The notes under the pieces are model-generated. The model did no database searches, had not been told where the DNA came from, and was given only the letters and a program-made list of their open reading frames with translations. From Candidatus Wolfebacteria bacterium RIFOXYB1_FULL_54_12 (lineage in GTDB: Bacteria > Patescibacteriota > Minisyncoccia > UBA6257 > UBA9933), in NCBI GenBank assembly GCA_001793895.1, contig MGIT01000001.1, positions 106,508 to 170,507 of the forward strand: a stretch of DNA of 64,000 nucleotides, in the 5' to 3' direction. This document shows positions 15,462 to 53,984 of the stretch, piece by piece. Both the position numbers and the translations under genes were made by a program. Every line of letters starts with the position of its first letter. Within the stretch, counting starts at the first letter, position 1.

Positions 15462-15700
15462 CCCGCGCTCTGTCATTCCCGCGGAGGCGGGAATCTATTT
15501 AATACTGGATTCCCGCCTCCGCAGGGATGATACCGTCTCTAATTAATACATTACTCAGCGCATTGTCATTCCGGCCTAAGCCTGTCCGCCAACTGGAGGA
15601 AGCCGGAATCTTGTTGAAAGAACTCGAGATCCCGTGTCGAGGCACGGGATGACATCGGAGAGCGACACAGGAAGCAATCGGAATGAATTTATTAGGGATG
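15462..15700. repeat. Cluster of at least four palindromic hairpin repeats (GTCATTCC.../...GGAATGAC family)
   Basis: 15468-15530 is identical to 29024-29090. Further units gtcattccggcctaagcc...ggaagccggaatc and gatcccgtgtcgaggcacgggatgac. Confidence 0.8.
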
Positions 15701-16117: not shown

Positions 16118-16195
16118 GTCATTCCCGCGAAGGCGGGAATCCACTACGTTCATATAGATCCCTCCGCCAGTCGGCGGACGGGAATGACAGAAATA
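16118..16195. repeat. Palindromic hairpin repeats
   Basis: Sequence cattcccgcgaaggcgggaatccac ... ccctccgccagtcggcggacgggaatgac. Confidence 0.75.
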
Positions 16196-29019: not shown

Positions 29020-29095
29020 TAATCTCTGTCATTCCCGCGGAGGCGGGAATCTATTTAATACTGGATTCCCGCCTCCGCGGGAATGACAACCTTTC
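29020..29095. repeat. Palindromic hairpin repeat pair, identical to 15468-15530
   Basis: Sequence gtcattcccgcggaggcgggaatctatttaatactggattcccgcctccgcgggaatgac. Confidence 0.85.
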
Positions 29096-29106
29096 TGATT
29101 CACTTA

Positions 29107-30858
29107 TTACAAATCCCCCTTCTCGCTCTTGTGTGGTTGCTTTGGTCGTTCTTCGGGGGTAGCTTCTTTTCTTTTTTGTAATGATTCTTCGATTGCCTTT
29201 TTCAGGTCATCAATATTGACCGCCTTTTTCTCGAACACATGTTTTGGCCTATCCTGCGGCATACTGCGAAGTCTATCGTCCATCGCTGGGCGATGCGGCA
29301 CAGGGCTGGCGCCACGATCTCCGCTAAATGGCCGCACGCTCGTCGGCCTATCGGTCAACGGCCCGTCCTGGGATGCCCGCGCAAACGACGGTCTGTCCTG
29401 CCTGCCCGCCGTAGTGTTAGCGGAGGAGGAATCCGCCGGCTGGCGGACGAAGGGTTTACGCTCGAAAGAAGGCTTCGGCGCTTGCGCACGAGGGGTTAGA
29501 GTCGAGCTCAACGACCGCTCGTCACGGCGCATAACCTTATCTGCCATGGATGTCTTACCCGACCCCATATATTCCTTGGCGATCATTTCATCCACCAACG
29601 CCTTAGGCATGGAATAATTTCTGCGGGAGTTTTCAATAATGACATCCTCGTAATTCGGCTGCGGGATTGGATACGGCGGCAAGGTCTCTGCCGAAAATGG
29701 TCTCGATGCCTGGCCGTCAACCAACAATTTAAGGTAAATATGCCGGTTTGACAAGCCGATCATATCTTGCGGCGTAAACTCGGGTTCGAATTCCTTTTCA
29801 AAAAATACGGCGTCGATGGCGCCAACGCGAAACATAGCCAAGGTGCCAATGTTGCCGACGATTGCCTCTGCAAGCCCTTCTTCTTTTTTAAGCTGATCGA
29901 CATACTGGTGGGCCAGCGTCAAGCCAAGTCCGTATTTGCGCGCCTCGGCGAAGATCTTCGTAAATGAACCGGTAGAAAAGTTTTGAAACTCGTCGATGTA
30001 CAAAAAGAACGGCCTGCGTTCGCTCTCGGGAATATCGATGCGGCTCATGGCGGCAAGCTGGATTTTGGTAATGATCATGGCGCCGAGCAATGCGGAATTG
30101 TCTTCGCCGAGACGGCCCTGCGAAAGATTGCAGATCAATATCTTGCCTTCATCCATTGCCTTGCGCATGTCGATGGTCGACTTCGGCTGGCCGATGATGT
30201 TACGGATGACCGGATTGGAACTGAACTGCCCTACCTTGTTCTGCAACGGTGCAATGGCCTCGGTCATGAACTTGTCGGTATATTTTGCAAATTCGTTTTC
30301 CCAGAACGACTTAATGACCGGGTCCTTTAAATTGGAAACGACCTTCAGGCGGTACTCTTTCTCCGCAAGCATGCGCATAATACTCAGTAAGGTCGTTCCC
30401 GGATATTCCAAAAGCGCCAACAGGGTATTGTTCAAAATATATTCCATGCGCGCAGACCATGCGTCCACCCAGATTTTTTGAAACACACCCATCACCGCCG
30501 ACGCGACAAGGTGCGCATGTTCGTCACCGACGCGTTCAAGCGGATTAAATCCGACCGGATTTTCGATATCGGCCGGATTGACATAAATGACATCCTTGAT
30601 GCGGTCTTCTGGCACATGCTTAAGCAACTCTTCGACGAATTCGCCATGCGGGTCGAGCACGGCAACACCAAATCCGTTCTTGATGTCGTTGATCATCAAG
30701 TTTTTCATCATGGTGGTCTTACCCGTGCCGCTCTTCCCGACGATGTACATATGCCGCAGGCGGTCGTTCATTTTGATGCCAAAATTAACGCTTTGATTGC
30801 GAAAATTCGTCTTTGCAAAAATTGAAATTTCTTTGTTGCTCATAGGGCTATTTGTCAT
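29107..30858 (-). CDS. P-loop ATPase of the TraD/VirD4/HerA (type IV coupling protein-like / DUF87) type, with a long disordered C-terminal tail
   Basis: Walker A (IVGKSGTGKTT) followed by VLDPHGE. Walker B (FFLYIDEFQNF). GLTLAHQ. The last 190 aa are low-complexity P/S/R/D-rich. Confidence 0.5.
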   Translation of the reverse strand: MTNSPMSNKEISIFAKTNFRNQSVNFGIKMNDRLRHMYIVGKSGTGKTTMMKNLMINDIKNGFGVAVLDPHGEFVEELLKHVPEDRIKDVIYVNPADIENPVGFNPLERVGDEHAHLVASAVMGVFQKIWVDAWSARMEYILNNTLLALLEYPGTTLLSIMRMLAEKEYRLKVVSNLKDPVIKSFWENEFAKYTDKFMTEAIAPLQNKVGQFSSNPVIRNIIGQPKSTIDMRKAMDEGKILICNLSQGRLGEDNSALLGAMIITKIQLAAMSRIDIPESERRPFFLYIDEFQNFSTGSFTKIFAEARKYGLGLTLAHQYVDQLKKEEGLAEAIVGNIGTLAMFRVGAIDAVFFEKEFEPEFTPQDMIGLSNRHIYLKLLVDGQASRPFSAETLPPYPIPQPNYEDVIIENSRRNYSMPKALVDEMIAKEYMGSGKTSMADKVMRRDERSLSSTLTPRAQAPKPSFERKPFVRQPADSSSANTTAGRQDRPSFARASQDGPLTDRPTSVRPFSGDRGASPVPHRPAMDDRLRSMPQDRPKHVFEKKAVNIDDLKKAIEESLQKRKEATPEERPKQPHKSEKGDL

Positions 30859-30970
30859 TCCGAATTTATTTCGGAATCTCGTGGTAAAATGCCAAGATCC
30901 TGTATCCGTCAGCCGACGAACGGAAGGATCTGTTTTGCATTGTCATACCGGCGGGTGAGGGCCTGTCCTC
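30850..30970. repeat. Palindromic hairpin repeats
   Basis: Sequence tgtcattccgaatttatttcggaatc ... gatcctgtatccgtcagccgacgaacggaaggatc ... attgtcataccggcgggtgagggc. Confidence 0.7.
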
Positions 30971-51714: not shown

Positions 51715-52329
51715 CTATTCCAATGCCAACGGGATGCAGGAAGGGACGTCTATTTCACAACCCTCCCGATCCAAACAGATCGTGGTCCAATTGACCTCCG
51801 GCGAATATGATTTTCCAATGATCAAGCAACCCGTCGCCAGCACATTGCCCTCAGTCAGCTCATTCGGAAACTTGGACCGTTTATTACTTCGCAGGGCAAT
51901 CGGAAGTCGAGGAGCCAACTCCACCCAGCCGGTTTTATCAAGACGGATAAGAACCGAGCTATTAAACCCCCTGCGCGGAGCTTCAACGACGATCTCACCA
52001 CTACCTGTTAAAATATCTCCCGGCATAAGCGCCCGCGGCTGGGAAATTGTCGGCGTGCGCAACATGCTTGAACCGTTGCTCTTTTGCCTCTCGTAATATT
52101 CGCGAAGATCGTATGAACGCTCGTGGATCTCGTCGGGCCAACCGGGAGTTTCCAGCTCGGCCAGTCTTCCCGCTCTCATAAGGATCATTGTATTGCTTTT
52201 GCTATCAGCAAAAACGATCCCGACATGATCGCAGGCCTTGTTAGTCCGGATGACGCAATGCTTTCCTTTGTGCTCGCCCGAAATAATACGAAATACCTTA
52301 CTGTCCGGCCTAATGATAGACATGCCCAC
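51715..52329 (-). CDS. Hypothetical protein
   Basis: 204 aa. No recognisable motifs. Confidence 0.35.
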   Translation of the reverse strand: MGMSIIRPDSKVFRIISGEHKGKHCVIRTNKACDHVGIVFADSKSNTMILMRAGRLAELETPGWPDEIHERSYDLREYYERQKSNGSSMLRTPTISQPRALMPGDILTGSGEIVVEAPRRGFNSSVLIRLDKTGWVELAPRLPIALRSNKRSKFPNELTEGNVLATGCLIIGKSYSPEVNWTTICLDREGCEIDVPSCIPLALE

Positions 52330-52426
52330 ACCCTCCTCTTTCTATGGATATATATGTAAAATAAGAGCTAACTCAAACTAACACCTGCGTTGCGCACTGT
52401 CAAACGATATTTAAAAAAATATTTTG

Positions 52427-52497
52427 AGCGGGTAAAGGGAATCGAACCCTCGCTTCAACCTTGGGAAGGTTGCGCACTACCACTATGCAATACCCGC
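52427..52497 (-). tRNA. tRNA-Gly (anticodon CCC)
   Basis: Reverse complement GCGGGTATTGCATAGTGGTAGTGCGCAACCTTCCCAAGGTTGAAGCGAGGGTTCGATTCCCTTTACCCGCT. U73 discriminator. Confidence 0.8.
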
Positions 52498-52839
52498 AAA
52501 AACGATACAGGCATTATAAAGAACAACCGGACAAAAGTGAAGTCATGGAAATAAAAAAACGACCTCTATGGTCGACGCGAATAAAGAAAACAAACCCGGT
52601 TGATGGCGATCGAACGAACCCAGTATTCCACGCAAGAAGAATGTAAGAATTCCCATATGAAATTGTCTGCCCATGCGCACAATAAAATACTGTATTTAGT
52701 ATAGGGCAACCAAATAAGATATACAACACCCGCACACCTTTTCTGTAACCCCGGCGGAGCTCGCCACGTGGAAAGTAGAAACTTTCTTTACGTGGGCCGG
52801 AGGAGTCCAGCGTTTTCCGCGATAGCGGTAGCTGGACAT

Positions 52840-53290
52840 TCAGACCCTAACAATGCCGGGAATGACGATGCGAGATTGGGTGTCATCCCCGTCCGTCCGC
52901 CAGCCGGCGGACGGAGGGATCCATGGTTTTTGCAGTAGTAGGGCTGGGATACCCAGACTCTGGATTCCCGTTTTCACGGGAATGACAATACCGAGGTGAC
53001 AAAGCAAGAAAATACTCATACAAAAAGGTTGTGACCCCGGCGGAGCTCGCCACGTGGTCCGCCAATGGCGGATCGGAATGACACCATCCACGCATTGTCA
53101 TGTCGACGCCTACCCGCCTTGGTCGGGAAGGCCGGTATCCGGTGTCTTGCATTGTCATTCCGAGAGTAGCGGAGCGGAGCCAAGGAATCTGTTTTTAGTA
53201 CGGATCCCTGCTCCACCTCCGCCAGCTGGCGGATATGGCGGCACGCGGTCGATTTAATTCCGCTTCGCTATATTGCACTCGGGATGACAG
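52840..53290. repeat. Dense array of palindromic hairpin repeats in a roughly 1-kb ORF-free region
   Basis: At least six GTCAT...ATGAC-type units. A 24-nt direct repeat accccggcggagctcgccacgtgg occurs at 52748 and 53033. Confidence 0.8.
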
Positions 53291-53476
53291 AAAGAACTGC
53301 TATCGAATTAGTAAACAATTTGCCGTGTTTATTACCACCGCTTGAATTCGTTTGGTATGCGCGTTAGCTAAGCAATAATTGACTACAGCCAATAAGTGTT
53401 CTATACTTGTTCTATATTAGAATAAATACATTGAATACTGCTCACGTTTTATTGTTCTATCTACGTTCTAACATAT

Positions 53477-53938
53477 ATGTCCATAACAAAAACACAAAAA
53501 CAAATATTGGATATCTTTGAAAAAAATGGCGGGGCACTTCCTTCGTTTCGCGAAATAGCCCGTCAGATTGGAGTGTCGTCGACAAACACTGTCTCCTATC
53601 ATATAGAGCGCCTGCGAAAGAATGGCTACCTCGATATCGGACACTCCCCCCAAGGGATGGCAAACCTGTCACTTAAAACGATTCTTGCCTTGGATGCGAA
53701 GCCGGGAGTCTACGTGGTTCTCTGCGCGAACAAACCATTTTATATTGGGTCGTCCACGAACATCCGAAAGGACATTCTTGAAACGGTCATTGGCATAGAC
53801 CGGTCCCCGTTTCCACAGATCGTCGGCAAGCCGGAAGAACTGTCCATTGCCTACCACATCATCGAAAGCGAACCCGAACGGGCCGACCTCAAACAATACC
53901 TGCTCGAATTTTACCAAGCCAAGGGCATCGACATATGA
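53477..53938 (+). CDS. LexA-type winged-helix DNA-binding domain fused to a GIY-YIG nuclease-like domain
   Basis: N-terminus LTKTQKQILDIFEKNGGALPSFREIARQIGVSSTNTVSYHIERLRKNGYL matches the LexA DNA-binding domain pattern. It is followed by GVYVVLCANKPFYIGSSTNIRKDI (GIY...YIG...R). No S24 peptidase domain. Confidence 0.6.
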   Translation: MSITKTQKQILDIFEKNGGALPSFREIARQIGVSSTNTVSYHIERLRKNGYLDIGHSPQGMANLSLKTILALDAKPGVYVVLCANKPFYIGSSTNIRKDILETVIGIDRSPFPQIVGKPEELSIAYHIIESEPERADLKQYLLEFYQAKGIDI

Positions 53939-53980
53939 ACAATAAAACGGTCCGCCAACATGGCGGACCGTTTTATTGTT
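53938..53980. terminator. Bidirectional intrinsic terminator hairpin
   Basis: Sequence aacaataaaacggtccgccaacatggcggaccgttttattgtt. Confidence 0.65.
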
Positions 53981-53984
53981 TTTA

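What the first reader, a model, noticed from the sequence alone, without database searches (positions are those of the whole stretch)
52498..53476. A roughly 1-kb ORF-free locus packed with hairpin repeats and a 24-nt direct repeat
No credible ORF lies between tRNA-Gly and the LexA-like gene; only short antisense artefacts are present. The region holds at least six palindromic units of the GTCAT...ATGAC family. It also holds two copies of accccggcggagctcgccacgtgg, at 52748 and 53033, each containing the CACGTG palindrome, in the same relative context.

It is not a CRISPR array, because the units and spacing are irregular and there are no cas genes. It could be a repeat nursery, a structured ncRNA locus or a recombination hotspot.
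Basis: seen in the sequence. Interest (0 to 1): 0.55.

Follow-up and report, generated by a model that had tools for sequence, protein, structure and literature searches.

The report
Cluster of Ssn-type hairpin DNA repeats
The gene-free kilobase is a pile-up of a known kind of genome-wide DNA hairpin repeat (the NTS/SRM repeats cut by Ssn single-strand nucleases, first described in Neisseria), here in a groundwater Wolfebacteria (CPR) genome; it is an unstable repeat mosaic, not an RNA gene.

Summary
Between tRNA-Gly and the LexA-like gene no gene is called in 8 assemblies. There are 8 GTCAT/ATGAC heads (1.9 expected) and a 28-nt direct repeat at 52744 and 53030.

The units are not local. About 25 hairpin-forming copies of GTC-A[stem-loop-stem]T-C lie across the 64-kb window. 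Nine match the published Neisseria NTS consensus (GTCATTCCCGCGMAVGCGGGAATCY) within 2 mismatches, against 0 expected. These are Ssn-related motifs (SRMs), the ssDNA hairpins bound and cut by small GIY-YIG Ssn nucleases (Chenal 2025).

In Wolfebacteria relatives, a 94-aa ORF 60% identical to the gonococcal ssnA orthologue, flanked by two SRMs, sits at the orthologous spot. Sister genomes carry SRM-ssn-SRM cassettes.

The locus is unstable. One strain lacks exactly the 286 bp between the direct repeats. The sister species has a rearranged mosaic, and further relatives have no SRMs there.

Rfam finds nothing, and both strands fold equally well (z about -8), so an RNA gene is not supported.

No ssn gene lies in the window. 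The neighbouring 153-aa protein (LexA wHTH plus a UvrC-like GIY-YIG fold) is not an Ssn by sequence.

Verdict: a new member of a known kind, of moderate-low interest.

The parts
52426..52497 (-). tRNA-Gly(CCC), the left boundary of the locus
   Evidence: ARAGORN. Rfam tRNA, 65.8 bits.
52499..52666 (-). Conserved non-repeat block. It holds a tRNA promoter-like site (52541-52513) and a minus-strand terminator-like hairpin with a T-run (52574-52560). Its core is GGAATTCTTACATTCTTCTTGCGTGGAATA. This block is not part of the repeat mosaic.
   Evidence: 85% identical to L011 9327-9491. Aligned with L014, L011 and L012. Promoter and terminator scan. Indels and frame differences argue against a conserved ORF. 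Covariation is inconclusive with 4 sequences.
52744..52771 (+). Direct repeat copy 1 (TGTAACCCCGGCGGAGCTCGCCACGTGG). Its first 15 nt resemble the 5' half of an SRM of the GTCACCCCGGCGGAG... subtype.
   Evidence: family D1. The subtype GTCACCCCGGCGGAGGCCGGGGTC is seen intact next to an ssn gene in sister genomes.
52772..53057 (.). 286-bp block that is present or absent among strains. It ends with direct repeat copy 2. The breakpoint can lie anywhere in the 24 shared bases.
   Evidence: L002 (ERZ27254749) lacks exactly this block and keeps one repeat copy. Seven other contigs keep it.
52764..52795 (.). Hairpin CCACGTGGAAAG-loop-CTTTCTTTACGTGG, overlapping the 3' end of repeat copy 1
   Evidence: DNA fold of 52744-52800: -14.5 kcal/mol, z -3.6.
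52805..52837 (.). Hairpin GTCCAGC...GCTGGAC (block 'Z'), homologous to L014 3581-3604
   Evidence: DNA fold -10.9 kcal/mol, z -4.6. Match to L014.
52856..52866 (-). Isolated SRM head (GTCATTCCCGG) without a canonical 3' half
52882..52921 (+). SRM with an extended stem: GTCATCCCCGTCCGTCCGCCAGCCGGCGGACGGAGGGATC
   Evidence: DNA fold -17.1 kcal/mol, z -5.7, 0 of 200 shuffles as stable.
52960..52987 (-). Canonical NTS-like SRM: TGTCATTCCCGTGAAAACGGGAATCCAG
   Evidence: Matches the published degenerate SRM pattern. Matches the NTS consensus with 2 mismatches. DNA fold z -4.6.
53030..53057 (+). Direct repeat copy 2 (TGTGACCCCGGCGGAGCTCGCCACGTGG)
53058..53082 (-). SRM head plus TCCGCC hairpin: GTCATTCCGATCCGCCATTGGCGGA. 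It forms an inverted pair with the head of repeat copy 2.
53094..53105 (+). Degenerate head ATTGTCATGTCG
   Evidence: No stable hairpin follows (z -0.96).
53154..53288 (+). 135-nt long hairpin bounded by inverted SRM heads (GTCATTCCGAG / CTCGGGATGAC). It contains the SRM-like unit 53154-53189 and the TCCGCCAGCTGGCGGA hairpin at 53218-53233.
   Evidence: DNA fold -31.2 kcal/mol, z -4.1. Its right part is conserved in L014.
53379..53470 (+). Promoter-like site (TTGACT-17-TATACT, 53379-53407) and four GTTCTA boxes (53398, 53409, 53454, 53465). Probably the operator of the LexA-like gene; not part of the repeat family.
   Evidence: The boxes are conserved upstream of orthologues in L010, L011, L012, L014 and L033.
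53477..53938 (+). Right-hand neighbour: a 153-aa protein with a LexA-type winged helix (aa 3-54) and a GIY-YIG-fold domain (about aa 65-150). It is not an Ssn by sequence.
   Evidence: Pfam. Profile match to the UvrC N-terminal domain, E 0.0035. AF2 model with pLDDT 88; best fold match is UvrC GIY-YIG, TM 0.64. No similarity to SsnA.

Best explanation
The GC-rich core of the interval (about 52744-53288) is a non-coding, DNA-level mosaic of Ssn-related motifs (SRM, also called NTS-type repeats). These are short oriented hairpins of the form 5'-GTC | A-T-T/C-C-(variable stem)-loop-(stem')-G-G/A-A-T | C-3', dispersed through this Wolfebacteria genome.

**Shown here**
- The units match the published NTS consensus.
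- They form stable ssDNA hairpins that leave GTC unpaired on the 5' side and C unpaired on the 3' side.
- At least 9 stem variants keep pairing by compensatory change.
- The units are strongly over-represented.
- In related Wolfebacteria they flank bona fide ssn genes, including one at the orthologous position.
- This locus differs between strains and species through a repeat-bounded deletion and rearrangement.

**Inferred from the Neisseria work (PMC11893778)**
- When the DNA is single-stranded (during replication, transformation or repair), a small GIY-YIG Ssn nuclease encoded elsewhere in the genome binds the hairpin and nicks a few nucleotides upstream of it.
- The repeats spread and pile up in permissive intergenic DNA.
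- The piled-up copies then act as substrates for recombination.

The 28-nt direct repeat is two copies of one truncated SRM-derived module. Recombination or slippage between the two copies deleted 286 bp in one strain.

The AT-rich ends of the interval are ordinary control DNA: the tRNA promoter, a conserved block with a terminator, and the promoter and operator of the LexA-like gene.
For: **Family identity**
- 9 matches to GTCATTCCCGCGMAVGCGGGAATCY at 2 mismatches or fewer, against 0.00 expected.
- 4 matches to the paper's degenerate SRM pattern against 0.25 expected. One of them is 52960-52987.
- A looser scan finds 33 units against 1.4 in shuffles.
- About 25 units fold with the GTC / C overhang architecture, using several different compensated stems.
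- The NTS definition, ssDNA-only binding and cleavage, the importance of the 3 nt upstream and of the C after the palindrome, and the NTS-ssnA-NTS layout come from PMC11893778.

**Link to ssn in relatives**
- At the orthologous site upstream of the LexA-like gene, L010, L015, L020 and L021 carry a 94-aa ORF flanked by GTCATTCCGGCGGA[G/A]GCCGGAATC. These are the only SRMs in 20 kb of L010.
- That ORF is 60% identical (52 of 86 residues, E 4e-39) to the single N. gonorrhoeae ssnA orthologue, which is itself flanked by NTS copies.
- Sister Wolfebacteria carry ssn paralogues with SRMs on both sides.

**Instability**
- A 286-bp deletion lies exactly between the direct repeats in L002.
- The more divergent strain L007 keeps the long allele, so the deletion is derived.
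- Sister species L014 has the same blocks in a different order.
- L011 and L012 have no SRMs, and only the two AT-rich ends are conserved.

**Not an RNA gene or protein gene**
-.
Against: - No ssn gene lies in the 64-kb window or in about 9 kb beyond its left edge. A cognate nuclease in this genome is therefore assumed, not shown.
- Most units fail the paper's strict SRM pattern. For example, the common GGAG loop breaks one position.
- Several 'units' in the target region are only heads or degenerate halves.
- Neisseria SsnA lost activity when the stem sequence was changed. The many stem variants here would need several nucleases or a relaxed specificity.
- How SRMs multiply is unknown even in Neisseria.
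- Nothing here shows cleavage, transcription or any benefit to the cell.
Confidence: 0.8

Rival explanations
1. The units are REPINs or REP sequences copied by a RAYT (an IS200/IS605-like Y1 transposase) rather than elements tied to Ssn. The locus is then a BIME-like accumulation produced by RAYT activity.
For: - The same Neisseria sequence (ATTCCCGCGCAGGCGGGAATC) has been analysed as a REPIN population with a Group 2 RAYT (bioRxiv 10.1101/2021.07.10.451892).
- Inverted doublets typical of REPINs occur in the window, for example 29028-29087, 15472-15530, 16118-16188 and 2382-2455.
Against: - No Y1 transposase family appears in the Pfam listings for the called genes and long ORFs of the window that were looked up.
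- Doublets often pair two different stem types, so they would not form one long REPIN hairpin.
- In relatives the gene flanked by the units is ssn, not a RAYT.
- The two ideas do not exclude each other. Ssn explains recognition but not necessarily spread.
Confidence: 0.12
2. The core encodes a structured non-coding RNA, which is one of the first reader's options.
For: - Very stable predicted folding (z -8.0).
- No ORF.
- The position between two promoters.
Against: - The opposite strand folds equally well (z -8.1), as expected for DNA palindromes.
- No Rfam match at E <= 10.
- The sequence is absent from orthologous loci L011 and L012, and is rearranged in the sister species L014.
- It is built from units that also occur at about 15 other sites and inside a coding gene.
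- One strain has lost half of it.
Confidence: 0.04
3. The locus is the decayed remnant of an SRM-ssn-SRM cassette that once sat here, as it still does in the GW2011 Wolfebacteria. The nuclease gene has been lost and its flanking repeats have multiplied.
For: - An ssn-like ORF, already carrying a stop at codon 3, lies with two SRMs at the orthologous position in L010, L015, L020 and L021.
- L027 has an SRM cluster plus ssn next to its LexA-like gene.
Against: - tblastn with the Ssn-like protein finds no trace in the window, even at E <= 10, or in L014.
- L011, which branches between the two groups, has no SRMs at the site. Independent insertions are therefore at least as parsimonious.
Confidence: 0.15
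4. The repeats are regulatory sites for the neighbouring gene. The LexA-wHTH / GIY-YIG-fold protein would bind the hairpins through its degenerate nuclease-like domain, so the cluster is part of its control region.
For: - SRM, ssn or small GIY-YIG elements lie within about 1 kb of this gene family in four independent lineages: the window with L014, the L010 group, L027, and L032/L033.
- The protein has a GIY-YIG fold.
Against: - Orthologues in L011, L012 and L013 keep the gene and its GTTCTA boxes with no SRM nearby.
- The conserved candidate operator is the GTTCTA boxes, not the hairpins.
- The nearest head (53278-53288) lies 90 nt upstream of the -35 element.
- There is no sequence similarity to SsnA.
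Confidence: 0.08

Closest known systems
NTS / Ssn-related motifs (SRM) and the SsnA GIY-YIG ssDNA nuclease (Chenal et al., Nat Commun 2025, PMC11893778)
   Same: - The sequence is nearly the same: NTS is CGTCATTCCCGCGMAVGCGGGAATCYRG, and the units here are TGTCATTCCCGCG[G/A]A[G/A]GCGGGAATC[C/T].
- The architecture is the same: an oriented hairpin with GTC unpaired at the 5' end and C unpaired at the 3' end.
- There are many dispersed, clustered, mostly intergenic copies.
- In related Wolfebacteria the units flank 94-aa ssn genes that are 60% identical to the Neisseria orthologue.
   Different: - The host is a CPR/Patescibacteria (Wolfebacteria) MAG. The paper's text does not contain the word Patescibacteria, and its survey used RefSeq reference genomes.
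- At least 9 stem variants coexist here.
- Copies sit in frame inside an essential gene, whereas only 2% of NTS copies are intragenic in N. meningitidis.
- No ssn gene was found within the window.
- Nothing was tested biochemically.
Neisseria dRS3 repeats and intergenic mosaic elements (NIMEs)
   Same: - The 20-bp core is ATTCCC-N8-GGGAAT.
- The repeats are interleaved with other short blocks in intergenic mosaics that vary between strains and act as recombination substrates.
   Different: - The intervening blocks here are unrelated to Neisseria RS elements.
- No filamentous prophage or IS110-type integrase was seen near the locus.
REP / BIME / REPIN-RAYT systems of Proteobacteria
   Same: - Short extragenic palindromes with a conserved 5' head.
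- Singlets and inverted doublets.
- Clustering into mosaics.
- A proposed single-copy domesticated enzyme that recognises ssDNA hairpins.
   Different: - The head is GTCAT rather than GTAG.
- The associated gene in relatives is a GIY-YIG nuclease, not a Y1 HUH transposase.
- No RAYT was seen.
Rickettsia palindromic elements (RPE)
   Same: Hairpin repeats inserted in frame into conserved protein genes. Here this is tsaD, with the peptide DSRLRGND falling in alignment gaps.
   Different: The sequence family is different and the units are much shorter (24 nt against about 100-150 nt). This applies to other sites in the window, not to the target interval.

Membership tests
SRM / NTS repeats (Ssn-related motifs) | Oriented motif: conserved GTC, then an imperfect palindrome beginning ATTCC / ATCCC, then a conserved C after the palindrome | tested here: met
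   9 matches to the NTS consensus at 2 mismatches or fewer against 0 expected. About 25 units fold as ...((((((((....)))))))). with GTC and C left unpaired. In the target interval this applies to 52882-52921 and 52960-52987.
SRM / NTS repeats (Ssn-related motifs) | Match to the published degenerate pattern HGTCWYN(0-2)YYVSBRHN(0-5)WNVSBRGN(0-2)RNCYNB | tested here: inconclusive
   4 matches in the window against 0.25 in shuffles, including 52960-52987. Most units, including the common GGAG-loop form, miss it by one position.
SRM / NTS repeats (Ssn-related motifs) | Forms a stable hairpin as single-stranded DNA | tested here: met
   DNA-parameter folds give z -4.6 to -5.7, with 0 of 200 shuffles as stable.
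SRM / NTS repeats (Ssn-related motifs) | Many copies per genome, far above chance, mostly intergenic and clustered | tested here: met
   33 against 1.4 expected. 30 hairpin-forming matches, about 25 of them judged genuine, against 2.5 expected. They cluster at about 15 sites. Only 64 kb of the genome was available.
SRM / NTS repeats (Ssn-related motifs) | Spatial association with an ssn (cd10448) gene | tested here: not met
   No Ssn-like ORF lies in the window or its left extension. The feature is met in relatives: L010, L015, L020 and L021 at the orthologous site, and L060-L068 with SRMs on both sides. The rest of this genome could not be searched.
SRM / NTS repeats (Ssn-related motifs) | Bound and cut as ssDNA, a few nt upstream, by the cognate Ssn | not testable with these tools
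   A biochemical assay is needed.
Ssn nuclease family (asked of the neighbouring 153-aa gene) | Single-domain GIY-YIG protein of about 94 aa with sequence similarity to SsnA | tested here: not met
   The protein has two domains and 153 aa. BLASTP against the gonococcal orthologue gives E 3.4, and against the Wolfebacteria Ssn-like ORF gives E 10.
Ssn nuclease family (asked of the neighbouring 153-aa gene) | GIY-YIG fold with conserved catalytic Tyr, Tyr and Glu | tested here: inconclusive
   The fold is present: the UvrC N-terminal domain matches with E 0.0035 and TM 0.64. The first Tyr (Y79) is nearly invariant. The second (position 89) varies among Y, H, F and T, and the Arg and Glu positions do not align.
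REPIN-RAYT | A RAYT (Y1 transposase) gene flanked by the repeats | tested here: inconclusive
   None appears in the Pfam listings for the window's genes and long ORFs that were looked up. Only 64 kb of the genome was searched.
CRISPR array | Identical repeats at regular spacing with unique spacers, and cas genes nearby | tested here: not met
   Units differ in sequence, orientation and spacing. None of the genes annotated in or beside the interval is a cas gene.
Structured ncRNA gene | Strand-specific structure conserved with covariation in relatives, or a match to a known family | tested here: not met
   No Rfam match. Both strands fold with equal z. The core is not conserved in L011 or L012 and is rearranged in L014.

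The most novel reading that the evidence does not exclude
The LexA-wHTH / GIY-YIG-fold protein next door may be functionally tied to the Ssn/SRM system. It could be a repressor whose nuclease-like, probably inactive, domain senses SRM hairpins or ssDNA, giving an SOS-like switch in CPR bacteria. The SRM pile-up beside it would then be part of that circuit rather than a passive repeat dump. The evidence does not exclude this. SRM clusters, ssn genes or other small GIY-YIG genes lie within about 1 kb of this gene family in four independent lineages. In one lineage (L033) two small GIY-YIG genes sit between its conserved operator boxes and its ORF.
Probability: 0.08. Interest if true: 0.65.

Novelty: new member of a known kind. 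Interest (0 to 1): 0.3.

Why it matters
It places the recently described Ssn/SRM hairpin-repeat system in the Candidate Phyla Radiation (Wolfebacteria). It does so with near-identical repeat sequence and 60% protein identity to Neisseria across a very deep phylogenetic gap, which argues for horizontal spread of the cassette.

It gives a concrete natural example of the repeats acting as recombination substrates: a 286-bp deletion bounded by repeats, seen within one population.

It shows that in tiny CPR genomes the repeats can even sit in frame in an essential gene (tsaD).

For annotation, it explains the common spurious peptides such as DSRLRGND and VIPAEAGI, and it warns against calling such intergenic mosaics ncRNA genes.

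It does not reveal a new kind of system.

Tried and rejected
- **Known RNA families.** Rfam found only tRNAs at gathering thresholds. At E <= 10 on 52300-53600 it found only the tRNA and two chance hits.
- **Hidden or decayed protein gene.** The ORF list shows only overlapping junk ORFs. No gene is called there in 8 assemblies. tblastn with the Wolfebacteria Ssn-like protein found nothing in the window.
- **The neighbour as the cognate Ssn.** Rejected by sequence. Only the general GIY-YIG fold is shared.
- **A second GIY-YIG gene in the window.** A motif scan found only the 153-aa gene.
- **A larger dispersed element covering the region (MITE-like).** Sensitive self-BLAST found only the short hairpin units shared with other sites.
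- **Polarising the 286-bp indel with the sister species.** The junction similarity beyond the repeat is only 5 nt, so it is not decisive. The strain tree argument was used instead.
- **A circular excision and reintegration model for the 286-bp block.** The block order is Z-Y in the window and Y-Z in L014. The idea was considered but rests on two short homologous blocks, so it is left as speculation.
- **Covariation test of the conserved block 52499-52700.** Four sequences gave too little signal.
- **Missing data.** Exact-protein look-ups for three window proteins were not on record. The paper's supplements are not held. The afdb50 fold library was unavailable.
Full report
**1. Origin and setting**

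The window is part of a 120.6-kb groundwater (Rifle) scaffold. It is also deposited as GCA_001793905.1 MGIU01000011.1. The closest named relatives of its genes are Candidatus Wolfebacteria, a CPR/Patescibacteria lineage.

The finding lies between tRNA-Gly(ccc) at 52426-52497 on the minus strand and a 153-aa gene at 53477-53938. gyrB and a 204-aa ORF with no Pfam match lie to the left. mraY lies to the right.

**2.

- No gene was called in the interval in any of eight independent assemblies. The ORF list shows only overlapping frames of 91 aa or less.
- GTCAT/ATGAC heads occur 8 times in 979 nt against 1.9 expected (p = 8e-4). Seven of them lie in the GC-rich core 52740-53300.
- The direct repeat is 28 nt, TGT[A/G]ACCCCGGCGGAGCTCGCCACGTGG, at 52744 and 53030. 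The copies are 27/28 identical and 286 nt apart. The sequence is unique to these two places in the window.
- The flanks of the two copies are not alike, so 'same relative context' is not correct.
- Composition splits the interval into AT-rich ends (32-45% GC) and a core of 54-57% GC.

**3. The units belong to a genome-wide family**

GTCATTCC or its complement occurs 27 times in 64 kb. A pattern of GTCAT-hairpin-ATC finds 33 units against 1.4 in shuffles.

With a hairpin-energy filter, 30 matches remain against 2.5 in shuffles. About 25 of them are real units. They fold as three unpaired bases (GTC), a stem starting A-T-T/C-C, a loop of 4-6 bases, and one unpaired C.

At least nine different inner stems keep perfect pairing. 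Examples are ATTCCCGC, ATTCCGGC, ATCCTGAA, ATCCCGTG and ATTCCGAA, plus long TCCGCC-containing stems. The flanks stay fixed.

The units sit at about 15 sites, alone or as inverted doublets. For example they occur on both sides of rplU (15472-15653 and 16118-16188). The target interval is the largest pile-up, not a unique object.

**4. Identification**

A full-text sequence search led to Chenal et al. 2025 (PMC11893778). That paper defines the following:

- **The repeat.** The Neisseria Transformation Sequence (NTS) is CGTCATTCCCGCGMAVGCGGGAATCYRG. It is an oriented hairpin that contains the dRS3 repeat. The broader class is called Ssn-related motifs (SRM).
- **The enzyme.** The 94-aa GIY-YIG protein SsnA binds these hairpins only as ssDNA and cuts a few nucleotides upstream.
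- **Critical bases.** The three bases before the palindrome matter for cutting. The C after the palindrome matters for binding.
- **Gene layout.** ssn genes are typically flanked by the repeats.

The window has 9 matches to GTCATTCCCGCGMAVGCGGGAATCY at 2 mismatches or fewer, against 0.00 expected. Two of the nine are perfect.

The paper's degenerate SRM pattern matches 4 times against 0.25 expected, one being 52960-52987 in the target interval. The commonest local form (loop GGAG) misses that pattern by one position, so the pattern undercounts here.

**5. Anatomy of the interval**

- **Left end, 52499-52666.** This is not repeat DNA. It is 85% identical to the orthologous spot of a relative whose neighbouring protein is 83% identical (L011). 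It is also recognisable in L014 and L012. It holds a promoter-like site for the tRNA and a minus-strand terminator-like hairpin with a T-run.
- **Core.**
  - repeat copy 1 (52744-52771)
  - two unrelated hairpins (52764-52795 and 52805-52837)
  - an isolated head (52856-52866, minus strand)
  - a long-stem SRM (52882-52921, plus strand; DNA fold -17.1 kcal/mol, z -5.7)
  - a canonical NTS-like SRM (52960-52987, minus strand; z -4.6)
  - repeat copy 2 (53030-53057)
  - a head with a TCCGCC hairpin (53058-53082, minus strand)
  - a degenerate head (53094-53105)
  - a 135-nt long hairpin bounded by inverted heads (53154-53288; z -4.1)
- **The direct repeat.** Its first half (GT[A/G]ACCCCGGCGGAG) closely matches the 5' half of an SRM subtype, differing in the head. 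That subtype is seen intact as GTCACCCCGGCGGAGGCCGGGGTC beside an ssn gene in sister genomes. The direct repeat is therefore two copies of a truncated SRM-derived module.
- **Right end.** It carries a good promoter-like site (53379-53407). It also carries four GTTCTA boxes, in two pairs 11 bp apart within each pair. These are conserved upstream of all orthologues examined. They are probably the operator of the LexA-like gene.

**6. Not an RNA gene**

- Rfam gives nothing beyond the tRNA, even at E <= 10.
- The 561-nt core folds far better than shuffles, but equally on both strands (z -8.0 and -8.1). This is what DNA palindromes give.
- The core is missing from L011 and L012, and those loci have no SRM in 17-20 kb.

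**7. The locus is unstable**

Seven contigs from other samples match the window at 99.9-100% identity over the interval.

One contig, L002, lacks exactly the 286 bp between the direct repeats and keeps one copy. L002 differs from the window by only 5 substitutions and one 1-nt indel in 9.6 kb. The more divergent strain L007 (13 mismatches in 6.1 kb) keeps the long allele. The short allele is therefore most simply a recent deletion by recombination or slippage between the 28-nt repeats. Confirmation at read level is still needed.

The sister species, Wolfebacteria RIFOXYD12_FULL_48_21 (L014; neighbouring protein 91% identical), has a 1049-nt interval with the same ends. Its interior is a differently ordered mosaic. 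Blocks homologous to 52802-52825 and 52973-53043 are present but in the opposite order, alongside other SRM heads.

**8. Link to ssn in relatives**

In the GW2011 Wolfebacteria (L010, L015, L020, L021; neighbouring protein 71-72% identical), the spot about 290 nt upstream of the LexA-like gene holds a small ORF, MK*YYVYILASKRNGTLYIGV... It has a stop at codon 3 and was not called as a gene. It is flanked by two SRMs, GTCATTCCGGCGGA[G/A]GCCGGAATC. These are the only SRMs in 20 kb of L010.

This ORF belongs to a very large family of proteins of about 95 aa carrying PF01541. The family shows 70-80% identity across phyla.

The ORF is 60% identical (52/86, E 4e-39) to the single match in N. gonorrhoeae. 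That match sits between CGTCATTCCCGC.CAGGCGGGAATC copies, which is the ssnA locus. The Tyr/Tyr/Glu spacing and the 94-aa length match the published Y6/Y17/E64.

Sister Wolfebacteria from the same aquifer carry two paralogues, P0019 and P0048, each with SRMs within about 60 nt on both sides.

No such ORF lies in the 64-kb window or in about 9 kb beyond its left edge. The cognate nuclease of this particular genome remains unseen.

**9. The neighbouring gene**

The 153-aa protein has a LexA-type winged helix at aa 3-54 (Pfam E 2.8e-10). It also has a C-terminal domain that matches the UvrC N-terminal GIY-YIG domain by profile (E 0.0035) and by predicted fold (pLDDT 88; TM 0.64 to 1yd3).

The search found 17 homologues at 42-93% identity, and the two that carry source names are Wolfebacteria / Patescibacteria. 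The first Tyr is nearly invariant. The second Tyr varies among Y, H, F and T, and the Arg and Glu positions do not align.

It has no detectable similarity to SsnA. It is therefore not the cognate nuclease by any test available here.

Even so, SRM clusters, ssn genes or other small GIY-YIG genes lie within about 1 kb of this gene family in four independent lineages: the window with L014, the L010 group, L027, and L032/L033. That recurrence is unexplained. It is the basis of the 'novel case'. Orthologues without any SRM nearby (L011, L012, L013) argue against a strict dependence.

**10. Mechanism, with steps marked**

*Shown:*
- family identity
- hairpin architecture
- over-representation
- association with ssn in relatives
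- a strain-level deletion bounded by repeats
- rearrangement between species

*Inferred from the Neisseria work:*
- The hairpins extrude when DNA is single-stranded.
- An Ssn nuclease then binds them and nicks upstream of them.
- The repeats accumulate in permissive intergenic DNA and then serve as recombination substrates.

*Unknown:*
- how the units multiply; a RAYT-type transposase is the main alternative
- whether the many stem variants are served by several nucleases
- whether the cluster has any benefit for the cell

**11. Verdict**

This is a new member of a known kind: an SRM/NTS (REP- or NIME-like) mosaic in a CPR genome. Interest is moderate-low. The more noteworthy by-products are the in-frame copies in tsaD, the conserved block beside the tRNA, and the recurrent pairing of the LexA/GIY-YIG-fold gene with Ssn-type elements.

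Noticed in passing
window 813-1958 (-), units at 1452-1475 and 1665-1709: The essential tRNA-modification gene tsaD carries SRM copies in frame, giving the peptide DSRLRGND twice plus a half copy. Against Thermotoga TsaD (6n9a_D), residues 81-106 have no counterpart and an 11-aa stretch (vdsrlrgndna) falls in a gap. The same 381-aa protein is called on 13 contigs, so the insertions are fixed in the population. This resembles Rickettsia palindromic elements.
   Followed up: partly
window 52499-52700 (minus strand): A non-repeat block conserved in L011 (85%), L014 and L012. It has an invariant core GGAATTCTTACATTCTTCTTGCGTGGAATA and ends at a terminator-like hairpin with a T-run (52574-52560), just upstream of the tRNA-Gly promoter. 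No ORF is conserved. It may be a small RNA or a decayed tRNA-end duplicate: 52597-52615 is 74% like the tRNA 3' part. Four sequences gave too little covariation to decide.
   Followed up: partly
window 53398-53470: Four GTTCTA boxes in two pairs (11 bp apart within each pair) overlap the promoter of the LexA-like gene. They are conserved upstream of orthologues at 37-91% protein identity (L010, L011, L012, L014, L033). This is a likely autoregulatory operator.
   Followed up: partly
window 53477-53938 (+): A protein family seen so far only in Wolfebacteria/Patescibacteria fuses a LexA-type winged helix to a UvrC-like GIY-YIG fold in place of the usual LexA peptidase domain. The catalytic residues are only partly conserved (position 89 is Y, H, F or T).
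   Followed up: partly
L010 9442-9720 (-); the same in L015, L020 and L021: An Ssn-family ORF at the orthologous site has an in-frame TAA at codon 3 (MK*YYVYIL...) in all four assemblies. It is otherwise intact and 60% identical to the gonococcal orthologue. It is either a very recent pseudogene or is expressed from a non-standard start.
   Followed up: partly
L033 2313-2932 (and L032 1-350): Two small GIY-YIG genes of a different subfamily sit in tandem between the GTTCTA boxes and the LexA-like ORF, so they appear to be co-transcribed with it. The second is bracketed by an 18-nt inverted repeat (CAGTACTACAACTTCGAA / TTCGAAGTTGTAGTACTG).
   Followed up: no
L027 3440-4300: A different SRM class (GTCATTGCGAGG...CGCGGCAATC, more than 8 copies) fills the space between a LexA-like gene (47% identical) and an ssn-like gene (50% identical to the L010 ORF), and continues beyond it. 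The layout parallels the window's locus.
   Followed up: no
L012 4795-4995; tRNA orientation in L010, L012 and L015 against the window, L011 and L014: L012 has a 3' fragment of a second tRNA-Gly allele (GGGAGTTCGATCCCCTTTACCCGCTCA) about 100 nt after its own tRNA-Gly. The tRNA is inverted in some relatives, and the gene content between gyrB and the LexA-like gene differs in every lineage. The whole interval looks like an integration and rearrangement hotspot at tRNA-Gly.
   Followed up: no
window 53937-53981: The bidirectional terminator between the LexA-like gene and mraY is built on TCCGCCAACATGGCGGA. The same TCCGCC-loop-GGCGGA module forms the inner stem of several SRMs (52896, 53058, 53218, 2392, 16163).
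   Followed up: no
window 30854-30878: An SRM head overlaps the predicted ATG of the 583-aa DUF87 / TrwB-like ATPase gene (29107-30858, minus strand). The CAT of GTCAT is the start codon on the other strand, so the annotated start may be an artefact of the repeat.
   Followed up: no
L069 (NZ_CP119142.1 in the plasmid collection): This 2.17-Mb N. gonorrhoeae record is labelled as a plasmid but is evidently a chromosome. Its ssnA copy appears frameshifted at the 5' end: the ATG frame stops after 10 codons.
   Followed up: no
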